A stretch of DNA of 34,988 nt from Bdellovibrionales bacterium (GTDB taxonomy: Bacteria; Bdellovibrionota; UBA1018; CAIMNF01): the NCBI GenBank assembly GCA_947457605.1, contig CANGWP010000001.1, positions 1-34,988 on the forward strand, read 5' to 3'. The notes below the pieces were generated by a model. The model saw only the letters and a program-made list of their open reading frames with translations, made no database searches and was not told the DNA's origin. The position numbers were made by a program, and so were the translations under genes. Positions 10,761 through 30,715 of this stretch are shown here, piece after piece; position 1 is the first letter of the stretch; each line of letters opens with the position of its first letter.

Positions 10761-11543
10761 TTATTCGGAGCAGATGTTCTTTAACGAAACAGTAAACTCA
10801 ACCCTTCGATTCCGTACATCATCGGAGGCAAGACCACGGGTGTTCATGCTCCAGGCTCTGCGAGAGGCAATCCCACGAGGGCAAAAACGTTCCTCATCCA
10901 TTTTCTGATTTTTCACAAAATAATGCATCACCGAGATCGCCCGTTCCGTTGAAAACAGATAGGGATCTTCACCACTGATCGGAGGCTTTTTGTCCAGATG
11001 CCCCTCAATCAGGACATTCCCCTGAACTTTTTTGAAAATCCCCGCAAGTTGATCGAGTCGTTTGTAAGCATCTTTTCTGATCTCAACCCCACCCGCAACA
11101 AACAGCTCATCCCCCGGAATGGAAAACTTCAGCACATCCACATCCGAATCAAGCTCAAGTCCGAAGGTGATGTCCCCGAGCTTTGATTCCACCTCTTCCT
11201 TCAGGTCACGAAGGGGTTTTTGCACGAGATCTTCCGGAACCTGTCCTTCCGCACCATTGGATACGGAATCTCCTTGCCCGAGTTTTTCTCCCAAAGGGAT
11301 CGCCTCGGCCGACTTTTCATCCCTTCCCTTGTTGTAAGGGGTGTTCGGGTGATTGAAATAATGGGAAACAATGGCCTTGGTCTCTTCATCTGCACTGGTG
11401 AGCCAGAGAACCAGGAAAAACGCCATCATTGCGGTCACGAAGTCGGCATATGCCACCTTCCATGCACCACCATGTCCACCCGCATGCCCGGCTTGGACTT
11501 TTTTGATTACGATCGTTACGCCTTTTTCCTTATCCTTGGCCAC
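10761..11543 (-). CDS. motB: Flagellar stator protein MotB (OmpA-like C-terminal domain)
   Basis: GGHGGAWKVAYADFVTAMMAFFLVLWL is the MotB plug/TM region with the conserved Asp. The C-terminal IEGHLD...NRRVEF is OmpA-like. Confidence 0.9.
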   Translation of the reverse strand: MAKDKEKGVTIVIKKVQAGHAGGHGGAWKVAYADFVTAMMAFFLVLWLTSADEETKAIVSHYFNHPNTPYNKGRDEKSAEAIPLGEKLGQGDSVSNGAEGQVPEDLVQKPLRDLKEEVESKLGDITFGLELDSDVDVLKFSIPGDELFVAGGVEIRKDAYKRLDQLAGIFKKVQGNVLIEGHLDKKPPISGEDPYLFSTERAISVMHYFVKNQKMDEERFCPRGIASRRAWSMNTRGLASDDVRNRRVEFTVSLKNICSE

Positions 11544-11557
11544 TTTCTACCTCGGGA

Positions 11558-12415
11558 TTATGCTGCTGCTTTTTGTCCAGATGTCGCTTTATCCACTTCA
11601 TCGAAACTCGGACGACATCCCGGAGGAACCGTCCTTCTTCCGAACTCAACGCAGACTTTGGGTGCGCATTCCTTGGCAAGCGCAAGAATTGCTGACCGAA
11701 TCACGTCTATGTATTTTCCTGCCTCGTGAATGTCGGCCTCGATCTTTGTGGCAAGAGGCTGCATGAATCCATAGGATGCAAGAATCCCGATGAAGGTACC
11801 CACCAGGGCCGCCGCAACGTTTCGCCCGATGGCTTCCTTACCTTCCGAGAGGGCCCCCATCGTGATCACGACCCCGAGAACCGCAGCAACGATCCCAAGA
11901 CCCGGCATCGCGTCCCCGAGTTTTGAAATGTATCCTGGAGCATGAAGTTCTTCTTCATGTGCGGCCTTGATGTCCTTGTCCATGAGGTCTTCCAAATCGT
12001 AAGGACTCATGGGGGATGAAATTTGAACCTTGAGCGTGTCGCAAATGAAGTGCAAGGCATGATGATTCGCAAGCACTCCGGGATAGCGTTTGAAAATTTC
12101 AGAGGCCTCCGGTTTTTCCACATGGGGTTCAAGCGAGAGCGGGTTGGTTTTCACCACCTTGCAAAGCTCGTAGAGGCACATGAGAAGTTCCAAGTATTGC
12201 TCTTTGGTCGTCGGTTTGGATTTGATCGCATGGAGAACCGAATGAATGATCGCCTTCAACTGCGACGTCGAGTTCGCCATCACCGCGGCACCCGCTGCAG
12301 CACCGAAGATGATCAGAAATTCGGTGGGTTGATTCAAGACCATGATGTTTCCGTGGTGGGCAACATATCCGCCCAGAACACACCCAATCACGATGATCGC
12401 GCCGACTATAACCAT
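11558..12415 (-). CDS. motA: Flagellar stator protein MotA
   Basis: MVIVGAIIVIGCVLGGY..., PGLGIVAAVLGVVITMG and AAALVGTFIGILASYG are typical MotA TM3/TM4 segments. The start at 12415 is supported by GAGGA 6 nt upstream. The ORF-track start at 12478 adds 21 unlikely residues. Confidence 0.9.
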   Translation of the reverse strand: MVIVGAIIVIGCVLGGYVAHHGNIMVLNQPTEFLIIFGAAAGAAVMANSTSQLKAIIHSVLHAIKSKPTTKEQYLELLMCLYELCKVVKTNPLSLEPHVEKPEASEIFKRYPGVLANHHALHFICDTLKVQISSPMSPYDLEDLMDKDIKAAHEEELHAPGYISKLGDAMPGLGIVAAVLGVVITMGALSEGKEAIGRNVAAALVGTFIGILASYGFMQPLATKIEADIHEAGKYIDVIRSAILALAKECAPKVCVEFGRRTVPPGCRPSFDEVDKATSGQKAAA

Positions 12416-12529
12416 AGTTTTTCCTCGAATACCATTTCGGCAGAATTGGAGGAAAACTTGACTCTTCCCTTGGAACAAGGAAGACCACCCCCAATAAAAA
12501 CACGCAAGTAATTGAAATTAATTGGAAAA

Positions 12530-19766: not shown

Positions 19767-21170
19767 TCAGGCGGCTTTTCTTTGACTGAGCCACTGGATC
19801 AGTTTTGATGCGATCTCACTCAGCGGAAGAACCTCGTTTGCGGCACCAAGACGGATCGCCTCTCTCGGCATCCCGAAGACCGCGCAAGAAGCCTCATCTT
19901 GCGCAATGGTGCGGGCTCCCGCGGTTTTGAGCTTGTGCAATCCTTTTGCACCATCAGCACCCATCCCGGTCAGGATTACCCCAATGCAATTTCCGCCACA
20001 GGTTTCTACCACCGAATCAAAGAGATAATCCACTGACGGTTTGTGCCGATTCACCGGCGGAGAATCATCAATCACAATGAACGTTCTTCCATCCGTACGT
20101 TTGCGAATCTGCATTTGTCGTCCTCCGGGCGCAATAAAAACCCTCCCCGGAAGGACCTCCATGCCGTGTTCGGCCTCCAACACCTCAAAAGGACAAAGGG
20201 AATTCATCCGATCAGCAAAGGCTTTTGAAAAGACTGCGGGAATGTGTTGCGTGATGACAATGGGCGGAATCGAGGCAGGAAGTTCCGTCAAAACCTTTCG
20301 AAGCGCCTCGGTTCCACCTGTGGAAGACCCAATGGCAATCAAGCAATTTGGATCAAGTCGTCCCGCGAAGACACCCGGAGGGGATTTTTTACCTCCTGTC
20401 ACCACGGCTACCGGACCAGGCGCCCGAATCGTCGTAACCTTCGCACTTGCAGCGGCCTTGATTTTTTCAACGATCACAGGTGCGGCTTCCGAAAGCTCGG
20501 ATGCACTCGGTTTTTGAACATAATCGACCGCCCCAGCCTCGAGAGCCTGAAGCACTCTTGATCCTTCCTCCAGGCCGATCGAGGTTATCATGACCGTTGG
20601 CACAGGATGGTGTGGGAAATACTGCTTCAAAAAGGTGAGACCATCCACTTCCGGCATTTCAAGATCCAAGGTGATGACATCCGGCTTTAACTTTTGAATC
20701 ATCGGAAGAGCACTGGAAGGACGATCCGCCGTTCCCACCACCTCGATTTGGGGATCCTCGCTCATGATTTTCGCAAGCAGGTTTCGAATGGTTTTGGAAT
20801 CATCGACGATCAAAGCTTTGATCTTCCTGGTAACGTGGATTTTGCAATCCTTTGGGAAAAACTTGACCTCAAAAGTCCCCTCTCTCACTGCCTGATTCAA
20901 AACCCGGTAGCGATGTTCCAGAAGAAAGGCGGAAATTTTTTTCGTGAGTTTTTCGGTACCAACCATTTTAAAGCCAACCGGCGTACCCACCTCGCCCTTC
21001 AGGAGTTCAAACCCGGCCTCAAGGTCTCCCTCATGAAACCATCTGGCACTGATCCAGACCGCAGCCGATGACTTGACTCCTTGTGAAACCCAAAGCACCC
21101 CGTCAAACAGGACTACCTTTTCGTGTTCCGGATGATTTGCGGAGAAAACTTTGAGGTGTTTGATCTCCAT
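19767..21170 (-). CDS. cheB: Chemotaxis response-regulator methylesterase CheB with an additional ~115-aa N-terminal domain
   Basis: The REC domain has KALIVDDSKTIRNL...VITLDLEMPEVDG...DYVQKP. The esterase domain has an intact triad context (IAIGSSTGGTEAL, VITQHIPAVFS, ILTGMGADGAKG). Residues 1-115 precede the REC domain and are not part of a normal CheB. Confidence 0.9.
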   Translation of the reverse strand: MEIKHLKVFSANHPEHEKVVLFDGVLWVSQGVKSSAAVWISARWFHEGDLEAGFELLKGEVGTPVGFKMVGTEKLTKKISAFLLEHRYRVLNQAVREGTFEVKFFPKDCKIHVTRKIKALIVDDSKTIRNLLAKIMSEDPQIEVVGTADRPSSALPMIQKLKPDVITLDLEMPEVDGLTFLKQYFPHHPVPTVMITSIGLEEGSRVLQALEAGAVDYVQKPSASELSEAAPVIVEKIKAAASAKVTTIRAPGPVAVVTGGKKSPPGVFAGRLDPNCLIAIGSSTGGTEALRKVLTELPASIPPIVITQHIPAVFSKAFADRMNSLCPFEVLEAEHGMEVLPGRVFIAPGGRQMQIRKRTDGRTFIVIDDSPPVNRHKPSVDYLFDSVVETCGGNCIGVILTGMGADGAKGLHKLKTAGARTIAQDEASCAVFGMPREAIRLGAANEVLPLSEIASKLIQWLSQRKAA

Positions 21171-21173
21171 GGT

Positions 21174-23018
21174 TCAATTCTTTCCGAAGAATTCCGTTCC
21201 GATGAAGGCGAAACTTGTATAGGGGAAAACATCCGTTGCATAGAGCTGCAGACTTTCAGTCCCTTTTCCCTCTCCCAAGTCCTCAAGAAGAAGCTGGCTG
21301 AAATGCCAACCTTTGAGATGTTGAGATGCGGTTTTGCCAAGCTCGCCAAAAACCCCGACTCCAATCCGGTCGGGCCCATGAAGAGCCGGCAATACGGAGA
21401 GCGCCTTGTGGTAGTCCAGCACCAGAATCTCTCCGGGCTTGGCCTTTACCGCAACGGTTTCCGGGGCAAGAACCTTCCGCCCCGTTGCTTTCGACAACTG
21501 TTCCGCAATGGCGGGAAGATTTCCCTCCACTCCCTCGAACAGAAGATAGACCGGGGGTTGCACTCCCTCCAACTCCCGAAGAAAAGACACGGTCTTCTTC
21601 ATGTGCCCCATGCCCGTGACCAGAACTCTCGCCTTGTTCTCCGGGTTCTTGATCTCAAGAGCCTTCTTGAACTGGGAATCGAGCTCAACCCGTTTCGGAG
21701 CCCCCATTCTCTTCAAGAGAATTGCCGATTTTAGCTTGGCCCGGATTTCTTCGCCTCTCTCCTGCAACTTGTTAAGTGCCGGTTTTTCAATGAAATCGGA
21801 AGCCCCAAGCTCGAGAGTCTTCATTGCAAGATCAGACTGATCCCTTGAAACCGAACTCACGATGACCACGGGAGGATGGCTTGAGGAAAAGTTCTTCTCC
21901 AGATACTCGACTCCATTTTGCTCAGGCATATGGATGTCGAGTGTCACGACATCCACATTCTGCAGGGTCTTCAATTTTTCCGCCGCTTCAAGACCGTTCA
22001 CAGCACTGCCGACTATTTCAAAACCCTGTTCCCGCTTCAGAATCTGCTTGAAAAGAGAATGAACACTTGGAGAATCGTCGACACAAAAAACTCGAACGGG
22101 TCTCGGCTCTCCGGACGAGACCGGGCCACCTTCACGAATCGGAATCACGGGTGCCGGTTGCGATGCTTTTTCACGTATCTTATAGATCGAGGGACCTTCA
22201 CTCTTCAGGTCAAATCCAAGTCCGTTCAGTGTCTCCGAGATGCCGATGAAAAAGTAGCCATTGGGTTCCAGGTGTCTCAATAACATCGCAGTGCTGGTGC
22301 GAATCTGATCCGGGGTGAAGTAAATGAACACGTTCCGGCAAAAAATGATGTCGAATTTCTGCCCTTCAAAATGTTCCTTTAGATCCAAAAGATTCGCCTG
22401 CTCAAAGCGGACACACTCGCGAAGCGGTCCCTTGGCTTTCACAAATTCGGAAATGTCCCCCGTTCCCCTCGCCCAATGATCTCCAAGATATGCCAAAGGC
22501 ACTTCACGGATCTCCCGTCTCGGGTACACACCGTTACGAGCAATTCGCACGGATTGCTCATCCACGTCTGTTCCGAGGATCCGGAACTTGAGATCAGATC
22601 CGTACGTCTGCAGGTGATACTTCAGGTACATGGCAAGAGAATAAACCTCCTGCCCACGGGACGCGGCAGCAGACCAAACATCGAGTGTCTTGTCCGCTCG
22701 TTTCCGGATTTCAGGGACCAACGCAGGCAGCGCCTTTTCGGCGATGAACTCGAAGTGACTGAATTCGCGGAAAAAATAGGTATAGTGGGTTGTCAGCAAT
22801 GAAACGATGTGTTGGATCTCGGATTTTTCATTGCTCTCGTAATATGCCTGATAGTCATCAATGGTCCGGTAACCAAGGTCCTGCACCCTTTTGTTCAAAC
22901 GAGTCTGAACCATTGCGCGTTGCTTATCACCAAGTTGAACTCCGGTCATCTTGGTCACTTCCAGTGCAAGATGCTCGCAGAGGTCCTGATATCTGAATTT
23001 TCTGGCTGCGGTACTCAT
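21174..23018 (-). CDS. cheR: CheR methyltransferase fused to a receiver domain and a degenerate CheB-like C-terminal domain
   Basis: CheR blocks are TTHYTYFFREFSHFEF, DVWSAAASRGQEVYSLAM and IFCRNVFIYF. The central REC has VFCVDDSPS...VVTLDIHMPEQNG...DFIEKP. The C-terminal ~190 aa is colinear with the CheB esterase but has TGMGHMK, LFEGVEG and VFGELGKTA at the Ser, His and Asp positions. Confidence 0.85.
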   Translation of the reverse strand: MSTAARKFRYQDLCEHLALEVTKMTGVQLGDKQRAMVQTRLNKRVQDLGYRTIDDYQAYYESNEKSEIQHIVSLLTTHYTYFFREFSHFEFIAEKALPALVPEIRKRADKTLDVWSAAASRGQEVYSLAMYLKYHLQTYGSDLKFRILGTDVDEQSVRIARNGVYPRREIREVPLAYLGDHWARGTGDISEFVKAKGPLRECVRFEQANLLDLKEHFEGQKFDIIFCRNVFIYFTPDQIRTSTAMLLRHLEPNGYFFIGISETLNGLGFDLKSEGPSIYKIREKASQPAPVIPIREGGPVSSGEPRPVRVFCVDDSPSVHSLFKQILKREQGFEIVGSAVNGLEAAEKLKTLQNVDVVTLDIHMPEQNGVEYLEKNFSSSHPPVVIVSSVSRDQSDLAMKTLELGASDFIEKPALNKLQERGEEIRAKLKSAILLKRMGAPKRVELDSQFKKALEIKNPENKARVLVTGMGHMKKTVSFLRELEGVQPPVYLLFEGVEGNLPAIAEQLSKATGRKVLAPETVAVKAKPGEILVLDYHKALSVLPALHGPDRIGVGVFGELGKTASQHLKGWHFSQLLLEDLGEGKGTESLQLYATDVFPYTSFAFIGTEFFGKN

Positions 23019-23026
23019 GGATTTTC

Positions 23027-23524
23027 CTATGCTGCGTTTTTCGTTCCGGTCTGTTGATTCCTTTTGATTGCATTCTGATCTTCAAGATTGAGACTCTTCG
23101 CAATATCGAGAAACAAAATGAGCTTTTTGTCCTTGCGATAGACTCCGGTGATGAAATCCGTGGCACGGGAGGATTGAATCTCGGGTTTTGGTGCGACTTC
23201 GTCAGGGTTCGGACTCAGCACGGTATTGACCGAATCAACAACCACCCCGATCGAAACTCCGCCAAGATCACAAATGATCACTGTCGTTTCTGCGTTTTTA
23301 TCCGCCTTCACTCCAAGCTTCTGCCGCATGTCCATCACGGAAATCACTTGCCCCCTCAGATTCATGATTCCAAGGAAATAAGGAGGCGTGTAGGGAACCG
23401 GGGTGTACTCCGGCATTGCAATCACCTCTCTCACTGCCAGGAGTGGAACCGCATACTCCTCGGATCCGAGAGAAAAACTCAAAAAACGCTCTCGAGCATT
23501 CATCGTAATGTTATTTGTTCCCAT
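23027..23524 (-). CDS. cheW: Chemotaxis coupling protein CheW
   Basis: The 165-aa protein has FLSFSLGSEEYAVPLLAVREVI...IMNLRGQVISVMDMRQKLG...IGVVVDSV, a canonical CheW fold pattern. Confidence 0.9.
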   Translation of the reverse strand: MGTNNITMNARERFLSFSLGSEEYAVPLLAVREVIAMPEYTPVPYTPPYFLGIMNLRGQVISVMDMRQKLGVKADKNAETTVIICDLGGVSIGVVVDSVNTVLSPNPDEVAPKPEIQSSRATDFITGVYRKDKKLILFLDIAKSLNLEDQNAIKRNQQTGTKNAA

Positions 23525-23525
23525 A

Positions 23526-25409
23526 TCAAGCCACTCCTCTTCCTTCCGGCTTCACCAGTTCATTCATTTCCAAAATAATTGCAGGCTTTCCATCCCCCAG
23601 GATTGCGCTTCCACTCATCCATCGCAATGCCCGGATCTCAGGCCCTACCTCTTTGATCACGACCTGCTGTTGTCCAAGAATGTCATCCACCATCACTGCA
23701 AAGGGACGGGAGGCATATCGGATCACCATCGCGATTTGCTCACGAGCCTGGCTTTCCTCGGACTTCTTTTGGCCCAGAAGCCTGCTCAAGCGGAAGAGGG
23801 GCAGATTCTCGCCCCTTAACAGGAGCATTTCTCCCATTCCTGTTGAAGCATGAATGTCATTTCCGGTCGGTCTGAGTGTTTCGTGAACATGGGAGAGCGG
23901 AACGACAAACCGGCTGTTCCCGTTCTTCACGACCATTCCGTCTATGATGGCAAGAGTCAATGGAAGGATCACTTTGAAGGTGGTTCCTTTTCCGAGCTCT
24001 GTCTCGACCAGAACCTCGCCCTGAAGAGCCTCGATATTGGTCTTCACCACATCCATTCCCACACCGCGACCTGACACCTCTGTCACCTGTGCCTTGGTTG
24101 AAAAACCGGGATGGAAAATCAGATGGATCGCCTGCTCACGAGTAAGCTTGGCATCCGGCTTTAAAATGCCCTTTTCAATCGCCTTTTGAACCAAACGATC
24201 GCCATCAATGCCGCCTCCATCATCTTTCACCTCAATCACGAGTTTCCCGCTCTGATGATATGCGTTCAGCATCACGTTTCCGGTTTCTCTCTTTCCAGCC
24301 TTGACTCTGGCTTCCGGACGCTCGATCCCATGATCACAGGCATTTCGAATCAAATGAACCAGTGGATCGCTGATGTTTTCCAGAACCGTTTTATCAAGTT
24401 CCGTGTCATCCCCCTGGGTGCTGAGCGCAACCCGCTTGTCGAGCATATTCGAAGTATCCCTCACGATTCTTTGCATTTTCTGAAAGGTCTGACGAAGGGG
24501 AACCATCCTCAAGCTCATGGAAATGTCCTGCACTTCTTTGGTGACCTTTCCCATTTGATGGATGGTTTTCCGGAGCAGATGCGATCCGCCACTCATGGAT
24601 TGCTCGCGAAGCACGGTCTGGAGGATCACAAGTTCCCCAACGGAATTGATCAGTTTCTCAAGTCGTGACAAGGACACCCGAATGGATTCATCCTGCATCG
24701 GCGCCGAAACAGGTTTCGATGCTTCCGGGCGCTTCAACTCAAAAACAGGAGCAGGCATTTCCTGAACTACAGGCTCAGGATCCGGAATCACGATGTTTTC
24801 CTCCTCTTTTGTCACCTCAAGAGCCGGGTTCGGAAGATCATCGAGCGAGTCATTGACAAGCTTAAGCAACTCCAACTCTTCCTTGCTCGGGGGAGGCTCC
24901 CCTTCGAATGCCCCGTGCACATCCTCGCCAGACTCGGGCTCGGTGGATTCGGAAACGAGATTCTCAATGCCCTCGAAAGAATGCGCTGACTCGGGAACGG
25001 GCACGGGAGGCTCCATCGACGCAGTTCCTGAGATCATGGAATCAAGCCGCTCTAGCAATTCAGAGCTGTCCACCCGGGCCTCAAGATCCTGCTTGAGTGC
25101 ATCCACCATCATTCGCACATGATCGTTGCAAAGGAGAAGGAGACTGATCACGGCCACTGTCACCGCAGTTTCTCCGTTTTTCAGTTTCAAAAGAAAACTC
25201 TCCCACTTGTGGGTGAAAAGACCGATGTCATCAAAGCCTACGGCTTTAGAGCTCCCTTTCAGGTTGTGGGCAATTCTAAAAATTTTATCGAGGGTGGGCC
25301 CATCCCCGGGATTCGACTCGAGCACAAGAAAGCACTGTTCAGCATCACTCAAGAGCTGACTTGCTTCTTCGAGAAATCCGACCTTTAACTCCCTTTCGAA
25401 ATCATCCAT
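23526..25409 (-). CDS. cheA: Chemotaxis histidine kinase CheA (Hpt - acidic/Pro-rich linker - dimerisation - HATPase - CheW-like)
   Basis: The Hpt domain has FRIAHNLKGSSKAVGF. The dimerisation region has IRVSLSRLEKLINSVGELVI. The ATPase has HLIRNACDHGIE, DDGGGID, GRGVGMDVV and the C-terminus has a CheW-like domain. A GAGGA RBS is present. No recognisable P2 domain is present; that region is acidic and proline-rich. Confidence 0.95.
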   Translation of the reverse strand: MDDFERELKVGFLEEASQLLSDAEQCFLVLESNPGDGPTLDKIFRIAHNLKGSSKAVGFDDIGLFTHKWESFLLKLKNGETAVTVAVISLLLLCNDHVRMMVDALKQDLEARVDSSELLERLDSMISGTASMEPPVPVPESAHSFEGIENLVSESTEPESGEDVHGAFEGEPPPSKEELELLKLVNDSLDDLPNPALEVTKEEENIVIPDPEPVVQEMPAPVFELKRPEASKPVSAPMQDESIRVSLSRLEKLINSVGELVILQTVLREQSMSGGSHLLRKTIHQMGKVTKEVQDISMSLRMVPLRQTFQKMQRIVRDTSNMLDKRVALSTQGDDTELDKTVLENISDPLVHLIRNACDHGIERPEARVKAGKRETGNVMLNAYHQSGKLVIEVKDDGGGIDGDRLVQKAIEKGILKPDAKLTREQAIHLIFHPGFSTKAQVTEVSGRGVGMDVVKTNIEALQGEVLVETELGKGTTFKVILPLTLAIIDGMVVKNGNSRFVVPLSHVHETLRPTGNDIHASTGMGEMLLLRGENLPLFRLSRLLGQKKSEESQAREQIAMVIRYASRPFAVMVDDILGQQQVVIKEVGPEIRALRWMSGSAILGDGKPAIILEMNELVKPEGRGVA

Positions 25410-25536
25410 GGTGCATCCTCGGATGACATTTCGGAACTAAAAGGAGCAAGCTTTAGCTATTCTTGTGGAATCAAAAAGGAATTCCAAATTGGGCGATTAA
25501 GGAATCCAAACACCCCGACGACGCAAGCCGTCTTGA

Positions 25537-26874
25537 TCAGAGAAGGTCATTGTTTTCGTTGGAAACTTCGTTTGTTTTAACTTCTTCCTTGAGAATCTCA
25601 TCGAGGAGCTTTTTGCGCTCGGCTGGGTTTTTCTCAATTGCCGCCACGAATTTGACCAAAACCCCCACCAAAGGCCCCGCCCCCCCTTCGATCTTGGTCA
25701 CCTGGTGAATCACATTCTCGGACCATCCCGCTTTCAAGAGTTCGGACTTTGCGATGCCTGCAAGGTCTTCGGAGGGTTTTTCACCACCCAAGGAAACCAA
25801 GCGAATCTCCTCAATCTGGTCACGCTTCGGAGTGAGTTTGGCATTTAGCTCGGAAACCCGCCCCGATTCGATTTCTTCCTGGTTCAAGATCCACAAAAAC
25901 TCCCCCTGAAGTGATTTTTCGCCTTTCTTCAGAATCGCTTTTTTCCTTTTGGATTCGTAGTTGATCATGTCGGATGCACCATGCGCGGGTGCCGGCAGCC
26001 TTTTTTCATAGTCCTTTGGGACCAGGACCGAATTCACATCCAACTCCAGAATCAACTCTCCACCATCTGCCAGGATCCGATCTCCCATGGAGAAACGAAA
26101 TTTTCGATATCCCGACTCAATCGCTGAATAAGTATCAGAGTGAGCGAATATGAATTCAATTGCGGTTTTCTCATTGAGTGAGAGTGACTGCAGAAGATCA
26201 ACCTCGATCTCGCCAGAATCATTGGAATAGATCGATCCACCGTCGGCTTTCGCCACTTCCTTCCACTCGGAAATTTTCAGAAAATCGGAACGATGGACGG
26301 TCGCGCCAACCCAGAATTTCGAATTCCCTCCGGATCCTCTGTCTTTTGACATTTGAGGGGTTTCGCCGATGCAAACCTTGCCATCGAGAATGCAAATCGA
26401 TTGCCCACTTTCAGGCTTCACACCCTCCTCCACAAACATCCGGACTCCGTTGAGCCTCAGCTTGAGAGATTTGACAGAGAGAATCGAATTCGATGGGGGA
26501 AGCTGCTGGATTGCCCTAAAGACAAGATTTGAATGGGGCGAGTAAGACACCCGGGATTTGTCATCGATTTTTGCTTTTCGATTTCCAGCATTCGAATGAC
26601 GAAAGGTGGAAAAGGACTTTTCAGGGCCGGCTTCATCCAGGAATGGAAGGCCGGACTCTACGAGGACTGTATCAATCTTCAAATCGTAATCAGAAAGGGG
26701 CCCAAGGGATCCATCCGTAATCGCAGCAGATTCCTGCTCGGATTGACCATCGAGATTCATGATTTTGGAAGACCCACTCCCCGCCTCTCCCTGGAGAGCA
26801 GTGACCTGCGAACGACCACAGGCGGTCAGTCCGATGATTGCCAGCAACAAAACAAACCCTTTTTCAGTCATCAT
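25537..26874 (-). CDS. Hypothetical lipoprotein
   Basis: The preferred start is ATG at 26874, giving MMTEKGFVLLLAIIGLTAC (signal peptide plus lipobox). The protein is about 445 aa with no domain I can name. The ORF-track start at 26982 adds 36 residues before the signal peptide. Confidence 0.65.
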   Translation of the reverse strand: MMTEKGFVLLLAIIGLTACGRSQVTALQGEAGSGSSKIMNLDGQSEQESAAITDGSLGPLSDYDLKIDTVLVESGLPFLDEAGPEKSFSTFRHSNAGNRKAKIDDKSRVSYSPHSNLVFRAIQQLPPSNSILSVKSLKLRLNGVRMFVEEGVKPESGQSICILDGKVCIGETPQMSKDRGSGGNSKFWVGATVHRSDFLKISEWKEVAKADGGSIYSNDSGEIEVDLLQSLSLNEKTAIEFIFAHSDTYSAIESGYRKFRFSMGDRILADGGELILELDVNSVLVPKDYEKRLPAPAHGASDMINYESKRKKAILKKGEKSLQGEFLWILNQEEIESGRVSELNAKLTPKRDQIEEIRLVSLGGEKPSEDLAGIAKSELLKAGWSENVIHQVTKIEGGAGPLVGVLVKFVAAIEKNPAERKKLLDEILKEEVKTNEVSNENNDLL

Positions 26875-27023
26875 GGGTGCGCAGAGTACCACAAAATTCC
26901 CGACTAAACAAGTCAATTGTTTAGTCGGCTTTTGCCATGAAGTCAGTTGAACATCCCCGCCCTCTGGCAGGATCTTGCCCATTCACGAGAGTTGGCCTGG
27001 TTTTTTATGGTAGGTAAAGAGTC

Positions 27024-28307: not shown

Positions 28308-28856
28308 TCAACGCTTTTTTTTTGCGATCACCTTTTTCCTGATTTTTATGGCCGACTTCTTCTTGGCGGACTTCTTCTTGGAAACGGGTTTCTTTCTCTT
28401 CGACGCGGACTTTTTTGAGGAGGATTTTCTTTTTCCTCTCACCTTCATGTGAAAGGACTGGATCAGCTTGTTCAAATGACTCAACATCTTCCTCTTGTGA
28501 ACTGGATCGACAGCAACCAGTTCCGCACCCACTTGAAACAAACCATTCGGAAGATGCTTTACCCAGGCAACGCAAACAAGCAATTTCAAGGCCTCCTCGC
28601 CAATCTGAGCTTCAAGCAGAATCAAAGCCCCCTTCTGGTATTCCCTCGCGGTTTCAAAGGAGATTCCATTGCTGGAGAGGTCGACAGAAGAATTCTCCTC
28701 AAATACCGGAGTTCCGAGAACCTGATAAAATGAATGTTTGATTCGACTTTGGACTGGAACACGAAGCCGCCGGCGACGATCAGAAGATTTAGATTCCATA
28801 AATTCAGTCTGACAAACTCCACAAAAATTTACGATGGCATTGTTTTGACGGATCAA
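28308..28856 (-). CDS. PilZ-domain protein with Lys/Arg-rich histone-H1-like C-terminal tail
   Basis: The PilZ motifs are RRRRLR (RxxxR) and DLSSNG (DxSxxG). The last ~46 residues are KVRGKRKSSSKKSASKRKKPVSKKKSAKKKSAIKIRKKVIAKKKR. The start is ambiguous (ATG at 28856 or the MESKSS start 19 codons in). Confidence 0.75.
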   Translation of the reverse strand: MIRQNNAIVNFCGVCQTEFMESKSSDRRRRLRVPVQSRIKHSFYQVLGTPVFEENSSVDLSSNGISFETAREYQKGALILLEAQIGEEALKLLVCVAWVKHLPNGLFQVGAELVAVDPVHKRKMLSHLNKLIQSFHMKVRGKRKSSSKKSASKRKKPVSKKKSAKKKSAIKIRKKVIAKKKR

Positions 28857-28943
28857 TTCTAAAACTTGGTTATCAGGATCAAATTTGAATACAAAACCGA
28901 AACTTTCCCTTAAACTGAAATTCTAAAAGGAGCCTCCCCATTT

Positions 28944-29339
28944 ATGTTCGATCTTAGCACCAAGGTATTGATTGTAGATGACATGATGACCATGCGTAAA
29001 CTCGTAGGAAAGGTTTGCAAGGAACTTGGATTCACCAATCTTGTTGAAGCAAGCGATGGAATCCAAGCTTGGGAAGTGATTCAAAGCTCAAATCCTCCGA
29101 TTGGACTGATCATTTCGGATTGGAACATGCCCAACTGCTCAGGCCTTGATCTCTGCAAGCGACTTCGCGGAGACAGCCGTTTTGGAAAAACTCCTTTCCT
29201 CATGGTCACCGCCGAGGCGGAACAGCACCAGGTGGTGGAAGCCCTGAAGGCGGGGGTCGACAATTATGTCATTAAACCCTTCACCGGCCCGATTCTTACC
29301 GAAAAACTTGAATCCATTCATAAAAAGCGGAGCGGGTGA
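28944..29339 (+). CDS. cheY: Single-domain response regulator CheY
   Basis: VLIVDDMMTMRKL, LIISDWNMPNCSGLDL, FLMVTAEA and NYVIKPF are present. All phospho-acceptor pocket residues are present and the DWNMP motif matches enteric CheY. Confidence 0.9.
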   Translation: MFDLSTKVLIVDDMMTMRKLVGKVCKELGFTNLVEASDGIQAWEVIQSSNPPIGLIISDWNMPNCSGLDLCKRLRGDSRFGKTPFLMVTAEAEQHQVVEALKAGVDNYVIKPFTGPILTEKLESIHKKRSG

Positions 29340-29344
29340 CTTGA

Positions 29345-30715
29345 ATGGGCAATCCCCCTCCTCCCGTACTCACAGTTGGCCTGCCCAAGGAAATTGAAAG
29401 TCTGATCAATGACATTCTGAAGAATGCCTCGGTATCCAGTATCCCTTTGGACATGGATGCGATCATCGCAGAGATCACTCCAAAACCTTGCCTTGTGATT
29501 TCGGGCCCGCCGACTCCGGAGCTTCCGGCCAATGAAATTGCGCAATCCCTGCGAATGCAATTCCAGGAAATCCCGCTTCTCCTTTGCTGCACACAAAAAG
29601 AAGGCTTTGAGAGAAAAGCCTTCATCAAGAATGGATTCACCGACGCGTTTCTACTCCCGTTGGATCTCGCGAACCTGCGATCTTCCATCAGTGATCGAAT
29701 GGCAGAAGCATCCAAAGGGGAAATCCGGACCTTCCGGCCCGTAAAGATCATCGATCTTGAACCGGGAGCCACACTTGATTTTGAAACCCATATTTTTCTG
29801 CCTGCGAACAAACGCTACATCAAACTAAGCGCATCCGGGGATTCGCTCGAAACCGACCGGATTGATCGAATCAAGAAAAGCAAGTTCAGCACCATTCAGG
29901 TTCCGGCAGAGCAAATGAAGCATTTCTATTCCTACTCGGCAAAACGACTGCGGGATCTCGGGTCCGGCGCCATGTCCGTCACCGAAAAAAGGGAGAAACT
30001 GTCGGGTGCGGTTCGGGACCTGATCAGCGGCCTCTTCAGCGAGCAAGCCTCATCCTTCGAATCAGGGCAGTCGATGATGAAGGATTGCGGTCAAATCGTG
30101 AAGACCTACATCGTGGAAGGCGCGGAAAGCGAGTGGTATTCCAGGATTCAATCCGTCCTTGGGGAGCGCGGAGACAGTTACTCCCACTCGGCAAACGTGT
30201 CCACTCTGGCAGCCTTGTTTTCCATGGGCCTTGGCATTGGAAAGCCCGAGGATCTTGCGCTTGCAGGACTCTTGCATGACATTGGAATTGCCGAACTTCC
30301 CCCTGAAATCCAGATTCTTGACCCGGAACAGATGACCCCGGCTCAGCTTGAATTGTACAAGAAACATCCTGAACTCACGGTGAACTTGATCAAGAGTCGA
30401 AAACTCATCGTGCCCGAGATTGTTTCAAAAGCAATTCTCCAGCATCATGAACTCTACAACGGATCGGGCTATCCAAGCGGTCTCTTCGGAGATCGGATTT
30501 GCAAAGAGGCTCAGATCATCGCACTTGCGGACCGATTCGACTATTTGACGCGCGTTCGAGATGGCCGTCCCCTGATGACTCCCGCCCAGGCAGTGGATCA
30601 CTTGAGAAGCCTTCAAGTAAACGACCCCTCCCGGATCCACTATGAGCCCGAACTCTTAAAACGGCTTCTGAATTTGTTTCCCGGGAGCAAGCCCGAAACA
30701 TCGCCTAGTTCTTGA
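29345..30715 (+). CDS. HD-GYP domain c-di-GMP phosphodiesterase with N-terminal pseudo-receiver
   Basis: HSANVSTLAALF...AGLLHDIGI (HD) and HHELYNGSGYPSGL (GYP) are present. The N-terminal ~120 aa has a REC-like beta/alpha pattern but lacks the acidic pocket and the acceptor Asp (CLVISGPP). The gene starts 5 nt after cheY. Confidence 0.9.
   Translation: MGNPPPPVLTVGLPKEIESLINDILKNASVSSIPLDMDAIIAEITPKPCLVISGPPTPELPANEIAQSLRMQFQEIPLLLCCTQKEGFERKAFIKNGFTDAFLLPLDLANLRSSISDRMAEASKGEIRTFRPVKIIDLEPGATLDFETHIFLPANKRYIKLSASGDSLETDRIDRIKKSKFSTIQVPAEQMKHFYSYSAKRLRDLGSGAMSVTEKREKLSGAVRDLISGLFSEQASSFESGQSMMKDCGQIVKTYIVEGAESEWYSRIQSVLGERGDSYSHSANVSTLAALFSMGLGIGKPEDLALAGLLHDIGIAELPPEIQILDPEQMTPAQLELYKKHPELTVNLIKSRKLIVPEIVSKAILQHHELYNGSGYPSGLFGDRICKEAQIIALADRFDYLTRVRDGRPLMTPAQAVDHLRSLQVNDPSRIHYEPELLKRLLNLFPGSKPETSPSS

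What the first reader, a model, noticed from the sequence alone, without database searches (positions are those of the whole stretch)
21174..23018. CheR fused to a phosphorylatable receiver and a catalytically dead CheB-like domain
One 614-aa ORF carries three parts. The first is a complete CheR methyltransferase (TTHYTYFFREFSHFEF, VWSAAASRGQEVYSLAM, IFCRNVFIYF). The second is a CheB-type receiver with all acceptor-pocket residues (CVDDSPS, TLDIHMP, FIEKP). The third is a ~190-aa C-terminal domain that aligns colinearly with the CheB esterase encoded next door. At the three catalytic positions the neighbour has GSSTGG / TQHIP / GMGADGA, whereas this domain has TGMGHMK / LFEGVEG / VFGELGKTA. 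Ser, His and Asp therefore all appear to be replaced. The architecture CheR-REC-pseudoCheB is not the CheB-CheR-PAS-kinase fusion I know of. It suggests that methylation, not only demethylation, is placed under CheA phosphorylation control. The dead esterase might act as a receptor-docking or autoinhibitory module.
Basis: partly seen in the sequence, partly recalled or inferred. Interest (0 to 1): 0.72.

Follow-up and report, generated by a model that had tools for sequence, protein, structure and literature searches.

The report
CheR fused to a dead CheB
This gene from a predatory-bacterium lineage (Bdellovibrionota) fuses the chemotaxis receptor methyltransferase CheR to a whole copy of its opposing enzyme CheB whose esterase half has lost its catalytic residues, which suggests, but does not prove, that methylation here is switched by phosphorylation.

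Summary
ORF 21174-23018 (-) encodes 614 aa. It has an intact CheR (residues 1-285, Pfam E 5e-45), a CheB-type receiver with all phospho-acceptor residues (307-438), and a 174-aa C-terminal domain (441-614) that no Pfam, NCBIfam or BLAST search recognises.

Three methods identify that domain as a diverged CheB esterase fold:
- Profile-profile comparison: 80-90 % probability, P 1.5e-6, decoys at most 5 %.
- Family profile against PDB sequences: the top three hits are CheB.
- Foldseek on AlphaFold models: the top eight hits are all CheB, and REC plus the C-terminal domain align colinearly with full-length CheB.

The Ser/His/Asp positions are Gly469, Glu495 (or Gly496) and Lys562. No column of a 128-sequence family alignment holds more than 20 % His.

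The fusion is not an artefact. More than 1,000 database clusters score E ≤ 1e-60 against the full protein, and every homologue checked carries the domain. All named sources are Bdellovibrionota, including Halobacteriovorax marinus. The usual operon is cheA-cheW-cheR*-cheB.

Databases call it "CheR family methyltransferase" or "response regulator", and I found no paper describing it. Phospho-control of methylation is plausible but is inference only. I rate it a new variant of a known kind.

The parts
21174..23018 (-). cheR* ORF, 614 aa: CheR, linker, CheB-type REC and pseudo-esterase domain (stop codon 21174-21176)
   Evidence: ORF list. Pfam and NCBIfam. AlphaFold2 full-length model pLDDT 93.3, pTM 0.90. 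An RBS-like GGAAA lies 7 nt upstream of the ATG.
22164..23018 (-). CheR module, residues 1-285 (all-alpha N-domain plus SAM-dependent methyltransferase domain)
   Evidence: Pfam CheR E 5.3e-45 and CheR_N E 4.8e-07. PDB 1bc5/1af7 phmmer E 1.5e-33. Foldseek 1bc5_A E 3e-23, TM(target) 0.84. R84, E85, S120, G122, E124, D151, R228, N229 and Y233 are conserved in at least 84 of 86 family members.
22101..22163 (-). Pro-rich linker, residues 286-306
   Evidence: This is the only internal region of low confidence, with 10-residue pLDDT blocks of 77 and 59. The sequence is SQPAPVIPIREGGPVSSGEPR.
21705..22100 (-). CheB-type receiver (REC) plus long alpha5/linker helix, residues 307-438; phospho-acceptor Asp361 at 21936-21938
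   Evidence: Pfam Response_reg E 3e-20. Best NCBIfam match is the CheB N-terminus, E 4.3e-30. 32 % identical to the REC of the neighbouring CheB, E 2e-20. Conservation among 86 members: D314 85, D315 86, D361 84, S389 84, K412 86.
21177..21698 (-). Pseudo-CheB domain (CT), residues 441-614. It has the CheB catalytic fold. The triad positions are G469 (21612-21614), E495 (21534-21536) and K562 (21333-21335). Family-conserved residues include E579/D580 (21279-21284) and T601/S602 (21213-21218).
   Evidence: hhalign against a CheB catalytic alignment: 90.2 % local, 80.5 % global, P 1.5e-6; decoys at most 4.8 %. Foldseek with the CT-only model: top 8 PDB hits are all CheB. With the full-length model: 1chd 197 columns, TM(target) 0.58. 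Family profile against PDB sequences: top 3 are CheB. No conserved His in the family.
19767..21170 (-). Partner cheB, 467 aa: unknown N-terminal extension (residues 1-114, 20829-21170), REC, and an intact esterase with GSSTGG / TQHIP / GMGADGA
   Evidence: Pfam CheB_methylest E 1.4e-65; NCBIfam CheB 402.6 bits against a 293-bit cut-off. Motif positions. Its start codon lies 3 nt after the cheR* stop. A cheB immediately follows cheR* in most related loci.
23027..23524 (-). cheW, 165 aa, same operon
   Evidence: Pfam CheW E 5.2e-36. Conserved position upstream of cheR*.
23526..25409 (-). cheA, 627 aa (Hpt, dimerisation, HATPase, CheW-like; no P2 domain detected), same operon
   Evidence: Pfam. 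Conserved position.

Best explanation
The gene encodes an active chemoreceptor methyltransferase (CheR) joined by a flexible Pro-rich linker to a complete but degenerate CheB. The CheB part consists of a phosphorylatable CheB-type receiver, the linker helix, and a CheB-fold domain that has lost the Ser-His-Asp triad and about 30 residues around the beta-hairpin/NRHKPSVD region. All of this is shown here.

Inferred origin: a cheB copy lying next to cheR fused to it and lost esterase activity. The receiver and a conserved surface on the old active-site edge of the sheet were kept.

Inferred mechanism: CheA~P phosphorylates Asp361. As in CheB, this changes how the receiver packs against its partner domain. 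Here the consequence would be a change in CheR's access to, or activity on, receptor glutamates, with the pseudo-esterase acting as the intramolecular regulatory or docking element.

With the intact CheB encoded immediately downstream, both arms of receptor methylation would then be under kinase feedback. The most logical sign is that phosphorylation inhibits methylation while activating demethylation. That sign is a guess.
For: Shown:
- Domain identities.
- CheR and REC functional residues are near-invariant across 86 full-length members.
- The C-terminal domain matches CheB by profile-profile comparison, with controls, by profile-to-PDB search and by fold.
- REC plus the C-terminal domain are colinear with whole CheB over about 350 columns.
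- The triad is absent in the query and in the family.

The C-terminal domain is retained at full length in every homologue checked, although it evolves fast: mean pairwise identity 0.235, against 0.45 for CheR and 0.54 for REC.

Its best-conserved residues are E495/G496, D535, G558/S561, E579/D580 and P599/T601/S602. They sit just after beta-strands in the model, on the same sheet edge as CheB's active-site cleft. This fits a preserved interaction site rather than a decaying remnant.

pTM 0.90 for a three-domain protein suggests a defined interdomain arrangement.

The operon is tight: cheW to cheR* 8 nt, cheR* to cheB 3 nt. The order cheA-cheW-cheR*-cheB is conserved in most related loci, and cheR* is the only methyltransferase in the operon.

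Precedents for regulating CheR exist: a TPR domain in FrzF (PMC3447774) and the response regulators PilG/PilH acting on PilK and ChpB localisation (PMC12129077).
Against: - There is no biochemical or genetic evidence of any kind.
- I could not inspect model coordinates or the predicted aligned error, so the interdomain contacts are unknown.
- The REC-to-C-terminal-domain orientation in the model differs from inactive CheB crystal structures (rmsd about 14 A over 350 columns), so the CheB switching mechanism may not carry over.
- The sequence evidence for CheB homology is moderate: 47.7 % with small alignments, no Pfam hit for the query, and one of 31 members at E 0.0087.
- The invariant Ser602 with Glu579/Asp580 could be a non-canonical catalytic site.
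- The conserved face is acidic, which sits poorly with direct binding of the acidic methylation helices.
- The receiver could simply be a phosphate sink.
- Some loci lack an adjacent cheB (L004/L010, L007).
Confidence: 0.55

Rival explanations
1. The REC plus pseudo-esterase module does not regulate CheR catalysis. It acts as a tether or scaffold that places CheR in the receptor array, or on the partner CheB with its extra N-terminal domain. Alternatively it acts as a phosphate sink competing with CheB for CheA~P.
For: An adaptation-enzyme-derived pseudo-domain is known to serve a structural array role: CheW-CheR-like in spirochaete F2 systems (PMC7666581). The CheA here has no recognisable P2 docking domain, so extra docking surfaces would be useful. 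The partner CheB carries a lineage-specific N-terminal domain that co-occurs with cheR*. The CheR-to-REC linker is flexible.
Against: The phospho-acceptor pocket is strictly conserved, so the receiver is used. A pure scaffold would not need it, though a sink would. pTM 0.90 suggests that the CheR domain is packed against the rest rather than dangling.
Confidence: 0.25
2. The C-terminal domain is still an enzyme, or a small-molecule or metal binder. It would use a new site built from Ser602/Thr601 and Glu579/Asp580 (with Glu495) in place of Ser-His-Asp.
For: S602 is 98 % conserved, E579 95 %, T601 87 % and D580 85 %. All lie at strand ends on the active-site edge of the sheet. Ser-Glu-Asp triads exist in other hydrolases, the sedolisins (own knowledge).
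Against: E579/D580 align with CheB's own non-catalytic QD(E) motif, and P599 aligns with CheB's invariant Pro, so these may be inherited structural motifs. P-x-T-S at the start of the last helix looks like a helix cap. The overall drift (23.5 % pairwise identity) and the loss of the hairpin/NRHKPSVD segment fit loss of the ancestral activity.
Confidence: 0.12
3. The similarity of residues 441-614 to CheB is a chance resemblance between generic doubly-wound alpha/beta folds, or the ORF is two genes joined by a sequencing error.
For: BLASTP, Pfam, NCBIfam and phmmer see nothing. Foldseek TM-scores are only 0.5-0.6.
Against: All eight Foldseek hits at E ≤ 1e-3 are CheB, and the next hits (dehydrogenases, methyltransferases) are at least six-fold worse in E-value. 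Independent sequence profiles also rank CheB first. Decoy and other alpha/beta controls score at most 4.8 %, against 80-90 %. The alignment is colinear and preceded by a CheB-type REC. The fusion recurs in more than 100 diverged homologues and 12 genomes.
Confidence: 0.03

Closest known systems
CheB (receiver plus methylesterase; PDB 1a2o, 6ymz, 1chd, 3sft)
   Same: Residues 307-614 follow the same order: CheB-type REC, linker helix, then a doubly-wound alpha/beta domain. Foldseek aligns about 350 columns with full-length CheB and 197 with the isolated catalytic domain. The PP-strand, QD(E)-like ED and C-terminal Pro motifs are shared.
   Different: Ser/His/Asp are replaced by G469, E495 (or G496) and K562, and are not conserved in the family. 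About 31 residues around the beta-hairpin/NRHKPSVD are missing. The query fails Pfam PF01339. The module is fused behind CheR. The modelled REC-to-domain orientation differs (rmsd about 14 A).
CheR (PDB 1af7, 1bc5)
   Same: Residues 1-285 are a standard CheR with catalytic and SAM-binding residues.
   Different: It carries a 330-residue C-terminal extension. Canonical CheR is a stand-alone enzyme with no receiver (own knowledge).
CheB-CheR fusion proteins ('CheBR', often with PAS and kinase domains)
   Different: The order is the opposite (CheB then CheR), and the esterase there matches PF01339 with its triad. Here the order is CheR, REC, dead esterase, and a separate active CheB is kept next door.
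CheW-CheR-like of spirochaete F2 systems (PMC7666581)
   Same: This is a domain derived from an adaptation enzyme that has lost its catalytic residues (R79W, Y218F) and is kept as a fused, non-catalytic module of the chemosensory apparatus.
   Different: There the dead domain is CheR-like, is fused to CheW and has a structural array role. Here it is CheB-like, is fused to an active CheR and comes with a live receiver.
CheR with accessory regulators: CheR-TPR/FrzF (PMC3447774); PilG/PilH control of PilK and ChpB (PMC12129077); CheR1-MapZ complex (PDB 5xly, listed)
   Same: These are precedents for methyltransferase activity or placement being regulated rather than constitutive.
   Different: Regulation there is by a TPR domain, by separate response regulators acting on localisation, or by a c-di-GMP-bound PilZ protein. 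None has a receiver built into CheR.

Membership tests
CheR methyltransferase (PF03705 + PF01739) | Matches the family profiles above the curated cut-offs | tested here: met
   CheR 153.7 bits against a cut-off of 27; CheR_N 29.8 against 27.
CheR methyltransferase (PF03705 + PF01739) | CheR fold (N-terminal helical domain plus SAM-MTase with beta-subdomain) | tested here: met
   Foldseek 1bc5_A E 3e-23, TM(target) 0.84, 279 columns.
CheR methyltransferase (PF03705 + PF01739) | Catalytic Arg and Tyr (R79/Y218 in T. denticola CheR, PMC7666581) and SAM-motif residues | tested here: met
   R84 is present in 84 of 86 members and Y233 in 85 of 86. E85, G122, E124, D151 and N229 are present in 86 of 86.
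CheR methyltransferase (PF03705 + PF01739) | Methylates receptor glutamates | not testable with these tools
   Needs an enzyme assay.
Response-regulator receiver (PF00072), CheB subtype | Profile match and acceptor-pocket residues (DD, D, S/T, K) | tested here: met
   72.9 bits against a cut-off of 30.2. D314, D315, D361, S389 and K412 are conserved in at least 84 of 86 members. The best matches are CheB receivers.
Response-regulator receiver (PF00072), CheB subtype | Phosphorylated by the cognate CheA | not testable with these tools
   Needs a phosphotransfer assay.
CheB methylesterase catalytic domain (PF01339) | Matches the family profile above the curated cut-off | tested here: not met
   No hit for the query at E ≤ 1 or E ≤ 10. 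One of 31 family members reaches E 0.0087.
CheB methylesterase catalytic domain (PF01339) | CheB catalytic-domain fold, preceded by REC and linker | tested here: met
   Top 8 Foldseek hits are CheB. 1chd TM(target) 0.58 over 197 columns, and full-length CheB about 350 columns. hhalign 80-90 %.
CheB methylesterase catalytic domain (PF01339) | Ser-His-Asp catalytic triad (S164/H190/D286 in Salmonella CheB; invariant S13, H39, D136 in alignment A4) | tested here: not met
   The aligned residues are G469, E495 (or G496) and K562. The highest His frequency in any family column is 20 %. Only 3 of 128 members have S, H and D near the aligned positions.
CheB-CheR fusion (CheBR) | An active CheB domain N-terminal to CheR in one protein | tested here: not met
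   The order is CheR, REC, CheB-like, and the CheB-like domain lacks the triad.

The most novel reading that the evidence does not exclude
The REC plus pseudo-CheB module is a phospho-switchable regulatory domain derived from the opposing enzyme. It would make CheR activity depend directly on kinase output. Together with the N-terminally extended CheB next door, it would form a reciprocal two-enzyme adaptation switch in which CheA feedback drives methylation and demethylation in opposite directions. The acidic conserved face of the dead esterase may mimic the receptor's methylation helix and occupy CheR's basic receptor-binding surface until phosphorylation releases or engages it. I found no chemosensory system described with a receiver built into CheR.
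Probability: 0.3. Interest if true: 0.8.

Novelty: new variant of a known kind. Interest (0 to 1): 0.6.

Why it matters
In the textbook pathway only demethylation (CheB) is under kinase feedback, and CheR is treated as constitutive. Here a phylum-wide family builds a live receiver into CheR, together with a fossilised copy of its antagonist.

If the receiver controls methylation, adaptation in these predatory bacteria follows a different feedback logic, which affects adaptation speed, precision and gain. The family would then be a natural test case for models of two-sided feedback.

It also adds a second example, after the spirochaete CheW-CheR-like protein, of an adaptation enzyme recycled as a pseudoenzyme module.

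Practically, more than 1,000 database entries are labelled only "CheR family methyltransferase" or "response regulator" and have an unannotated 175-residue domain that can now be named.

Cultured hosts exist for experiments: Halobacteriovorax marinus and Bacteriovorax sp. BSW11_IV and DB6_IX.

Tried and rejected
- **Direct sequence methods on residues 441-614.** BLASTP against the neighbouring CheB, Pfam and NCBIfam and phmmer against PDB all found nothing. This is why profiles and structure were needed.
- **Word-indexed homologue search with the C-terminal domain alone.** It found only 3 fragments. The exhaustive profile search was required.
- **False positives in that search.** P0102 is a 2338-aa Ig-like repeat protein of Pseudomonas. 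I set it aside, and P0147 (2928 aa, 7 short stretches) likewise.
- **Genome scans.** Patterns from the 4-sequence alignment A1 found nothing. A 6-sequence alignment worked.
- **Is the N-terminal extension of the partner CheB a degenerate CheD?** The idea came from CheD-CheB fusions among its relatives. There is no Pfam hit, hhalign gives 0.4 %, and the PDB profile search returns only spurious designed TIM-barrel repeats. Rejected for lack of evidence; the function stays unknown.
- **Did the REC of cheR* arise from the partner CheB?** The cheR* receivers are monophyletic (13 of 13), but are barely closer to partner CheB receivers (37 %) than to other CheB receivers (35 %). Inconclusive.
- **Literature.** Eight full-text searches found no description of a CheR-REC or pseudo-CheB protein. 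Wuichet and Zhulin 2010 was not available under the id I tried, so a mention there or in the MiST database cannot be excluded.
Full report
**The observation**

The minus-strand ORF 21174..23018 encodes 614 aa. Pfam finds CheR_N (23-60), CheR (80-266, E 5.3e-45) and Response_reg (310-418, E 3e-20). It finds nothing for residues 441-614. NCBIfam's best receiver match is the N-terminus of CheB (E 4.3e-30). The best solved-structure matches for the receiver are also CheB proteins (6ymz, 1a2o, 3t8y), ahead of CheY.

The gene sits in a tight operon on the minus strand:
- cheA, 23526-25409
- cheW, 23027-23524
- this gene
- a full cheB, 19767-21170

The gaps are 8 nt (cheW to cheR*) and 3 nt (cheR* to cheB), and a GGAAA lies 7 nt upstream of the ATG.

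**Is the C-terminal domain CheB-like?**

Direct comparison fails. BLASTP aligns only the two receivers (32 % identity, E 2e-20) and nothing after residue 432.

I therefore collected the family. A word-indexed search with the domain found 3 fragments. An exhaustive profile search of 1.84 billion representatives found 170 at E ≤ 1e-3, mostly 600-660 aa with the domain at the C-terminus.

*Profile-profile comparison.* A 128-sequence alignment of the domain was compared with a 117-sequence alignment of CheB catalytic domains gathered.
- Local mode: 90.2 % probability over 78 columns.
- Global mode: 80.5 % over 156 colinear columns, P 1.5e-6.
- Controls: the family's own REC and CheR domains, a reversed CheB alignment, and ten column-shuffled CheB alignments all gave at most 4.8 %.
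- The in-tool comparison with smaller alignments gave 47.7 %, E 1.9e-4, over 75 columns.

*Profile against PDB sequences.* A profile of 31 diverse members ranked CheB first, second and third (1chd E 0.016, 1a2o 0.068, 6ymz 0.12).

*Structure.*
- An AlphaFold2 model of the domain alone had mean pLDDT 66, from a 4-sequence alignment. Every Foldseek hit at E ≤ 1e-3 was a CheB catalytic domain: eight chains from four entries (1chd, 6ymz, 3sft, 1a2o), TM(query) 0.53-0.61.
- A full-length model from an 89-sequence alignment reached pLDDT 93.3 and pTM 0.90.
- That model matched CheR structures with its N-terminal part (1bc5 TM(target) 0.84).
- It matched full-length CheB over about 350 columns (6ymz E 8e-16, 1a2o E 8e-14).
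- It matched the isolated catalytic domain 1chd over 197 columns (TM(target) 0.58, rmsd 4.0 A).

The large rmsd against full-length CheB (about 14 A) shows that the two halves are each CheB-like but are oriented differently in the model than in the crystal structures.

**Is it catalytically dead?**

In the hhalign alignment the CheB nucleophile Ser aligns with G469, His with E495 and Asp with K562. HMMER's alignment to 1chd shifts the His position by one residue, to G496. Neither residue is His.

Across 128 family members:
- Ser-equivalent column: G 33 %, S 24 %.
- His-equivalent column: E 57 %, D 18 %, with only 7 His.
- Asp-equivalent column: K 26 %, D 10 %.
- No column anywhere in the alignment exceeds 20 % His.
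- Only 3 of 128 sequences have a Ser, a His and an Asp within a residue or two of the aligned positions.

About 31 residues of CheB, the hairpin carrying the conserved NRHKPSVD segment, have no counterpart. A shifted Ser-His-Asp triad is therefore excluded for the family.

The following residues are conserved instead: R464, Q487-P-P, E495-G496, D535, S553, G558, S561, E579 (95 %), D580 (85 %), P599, T601 (87 %), S602 (98 %), F603 and Y605. Several correspond to non-catalytic CheB motifs: the PP-strand, the QD of AQDE, and the C-terminal Pro. In the model's secondary structure most of them lie just after beta-strands, on the sheet edge that carries CheB's active-site cleft. That mapping is my inference, because I could not view coordinates.

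**Is the rest of the protein functional?**

Across 86 full-length members the CheR catalytic and SAM-motif residues are essentially invariant: R84, E85, S120, G122, E124, D151, R228, N229 and Y233. So are the receiver's D314, D315, D361, S389 and K412.

| Domain | Mean pairwise identity |
|---|---|
| CheR | 0.45 |
| REC | 0.54 |
| C-terminal domain | 0.235 |

The dead domain evolves about twice as fast as the other two. It is nevertheless always retained at full length: all 110 further top homologues carry it.

**Is the fusion real, and where does it occur?**

The full-length query has 1,212 database clusters at E ≤ 1e-60, and the best 120 are all about 590-660 aa. Named sources are all Bdellovibrionota or unclassified metagenome bins:
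- Bdellovibrionales
- Oligoflexia
- Bdellovibrionota bacterium FG-1
- Halobacteriovorax sp.
- Halobacteriovorax marinus

A scan of one genome per species found it in Pseudobdellovibrionaceae, Bacteriovoracaceae and Halobacteriovorax. It also found it in the isolates Bacteriovorax sp. BSW11_IV and DB6_IX.

Sources name it "chemotaxis protein methyltransferase CheR", "CheR family methyltransferase", "response regulator" or "hypothetical protein". Their precomputed Pfam annotation stops at the receiver.

In the related loci the usual order is cheA-cheW-cheR*-cheB. One variant inserts mcp and a cheY-like gene. Exceptions are cheW-mcp-cheW-cheR* without cheB (L004/L010) and an isolated copy (L007). 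One representative (P0092, 1107 aa) continues straight into a CheB. The fusion is thus an old, stable, lineage-wide gene.

**How it most likely works**

*Shown.* The protein is an apparently active CheR covalently linked, through a low-confidence Pro-rich linker (residues 286-306), to a whole CheB-derived unit. In that unit the receiver is intact and the esterase is not.

*Inferred.* The unit keeps CheB's role as a phosphorylation-operated switch but now acts on CheR. CheA~P would phosphorylate D361. The receiver's repacking against the pseudo-esterase would then change CheR's access to receptor glutamates or its placement. The pTM of 0.90 suggests a defined three-domain assembly, which fits intramolecular control. 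With the active CheB next door, methylation and demethylation would both respond to kinase activity. Inhibition of CheR by phosphorylation would reinforce negative feedback, but the sign is a guess.

*Rivals.*
- A docking, scaffold or phosphate-sink role without catalytic regulation. The spirochaete CheW-CheR-like protein (PMC7666581) is a precedent for a dead adaptation-enzyme domain used structurally.
- A new catalytic or ligand site built on S602, E579 and D580.
- Chance similarity or artefact, which is largely excluded.

**Comparison with what is known**

It works like, and descends from, CheR and CheB. It is a member of the CheR and receiver families. It is not a member of the CheB esterase family by the profile or triad criteria, although it has the fold.

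It differs from CheB-CheR fusions in domain order and in having a dead esterase (the description of those fusions is my own knowledge). It differs from CheR-TPR (PMC3447774), from PilG/PilH control of PilK (PMC12129077) and from MapZ-CheR1 in carrying the receiver within CheR itself.

Eight full-text searches found no description of this architecture. The held library is incomplete, and one key comparative-genomics paper could not be read under the id I tried.

**Verdict**

The functional interpretation is plausible but untested. I rate it a new variant of a known kind and of moderate to high interest to chemotaxis specialists.

Noticed in passing
window 19767-21170 (-); extension = 20829-21170: The partner CheB has a roughly 114-aa N-terminal extension before its receiver. 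A comparable 115-145-aa extension precedes the REC in all but one of the 12 cheB genes that follow cheR* in the non-redundant loci, window included. Its conserved features are a K-x-[IV]-G motif and a C-terminal VEReG..EV.F.P..GK.RV motif. There is no Pfam hit, no CheD similarity and no meaningful PDB match. Its function is unknown and it co-occurs with the dead-CheB fusion.
   Followed up: partly
window 23526-25409 (-): The CheA has Hpt (12-107), dimerisation (241-299), HATPase and CheW-like domains, but no detectable P2 domain. An acidic, Pro-rich linker fills residues 108-240. Both receivers of the operon would therefore have to dock elsewhere.
   Followed up: no
window 19767-26982: The window's che operon contains no MCP and no single-domain CheY. 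A 481-aa ORF with no Pfam match (25537-26982, -) lies just upstream of cheA. The related locus L002 has mcp and a 187-aa receiver gene between cheW and cheR*.
   Followed up: partly
P0092 (1107 aa): One family representative continues from CheR-REC-dead domain directly into a REC plus an active CheB catalytic domain in a single protein. This is either a natural four-module fusion or a read-through or frameshift in that assembly.
   Followed up: no
L004 / L010 (Oligoflexia MAG JACMNQ010000049.1), 4870-9884 in L004: This is a variant context, cheW-mcp-cheW-cheR*, with no cheA or cheB adjacent. The fusion protein is therefore not always paired with a neighbouring esterase.
   Followed up: no
P0168, P0230: Among the closest relatives of the window's CheB catalytic domain are CheD-CheB(catalytic) fusions that lack a receiver (CheD E 1.4e-21 and 1.1e-10). 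This is another unusual adaptation-enzyme fusion.
   Followed up: partly
window 28308-30715: A faint PilZ-domain gene (28308-28799, -) is followed by a 131-aa receiver (28944-29339, +) and an HD/HD-GYP protein (29345-30715, +). This is a likely c-di-GMP signalling pair close to the che operon. The annotation comes from the identical ENA contig.
   Followed up: no
window 10761-12478 (-): MotA and MotB stator genes lie about 7 kb beyond cheB (from the annotation of the identical contig). This is consistent with a flagellar context and is otherwise ordinary.
   Followed up: no
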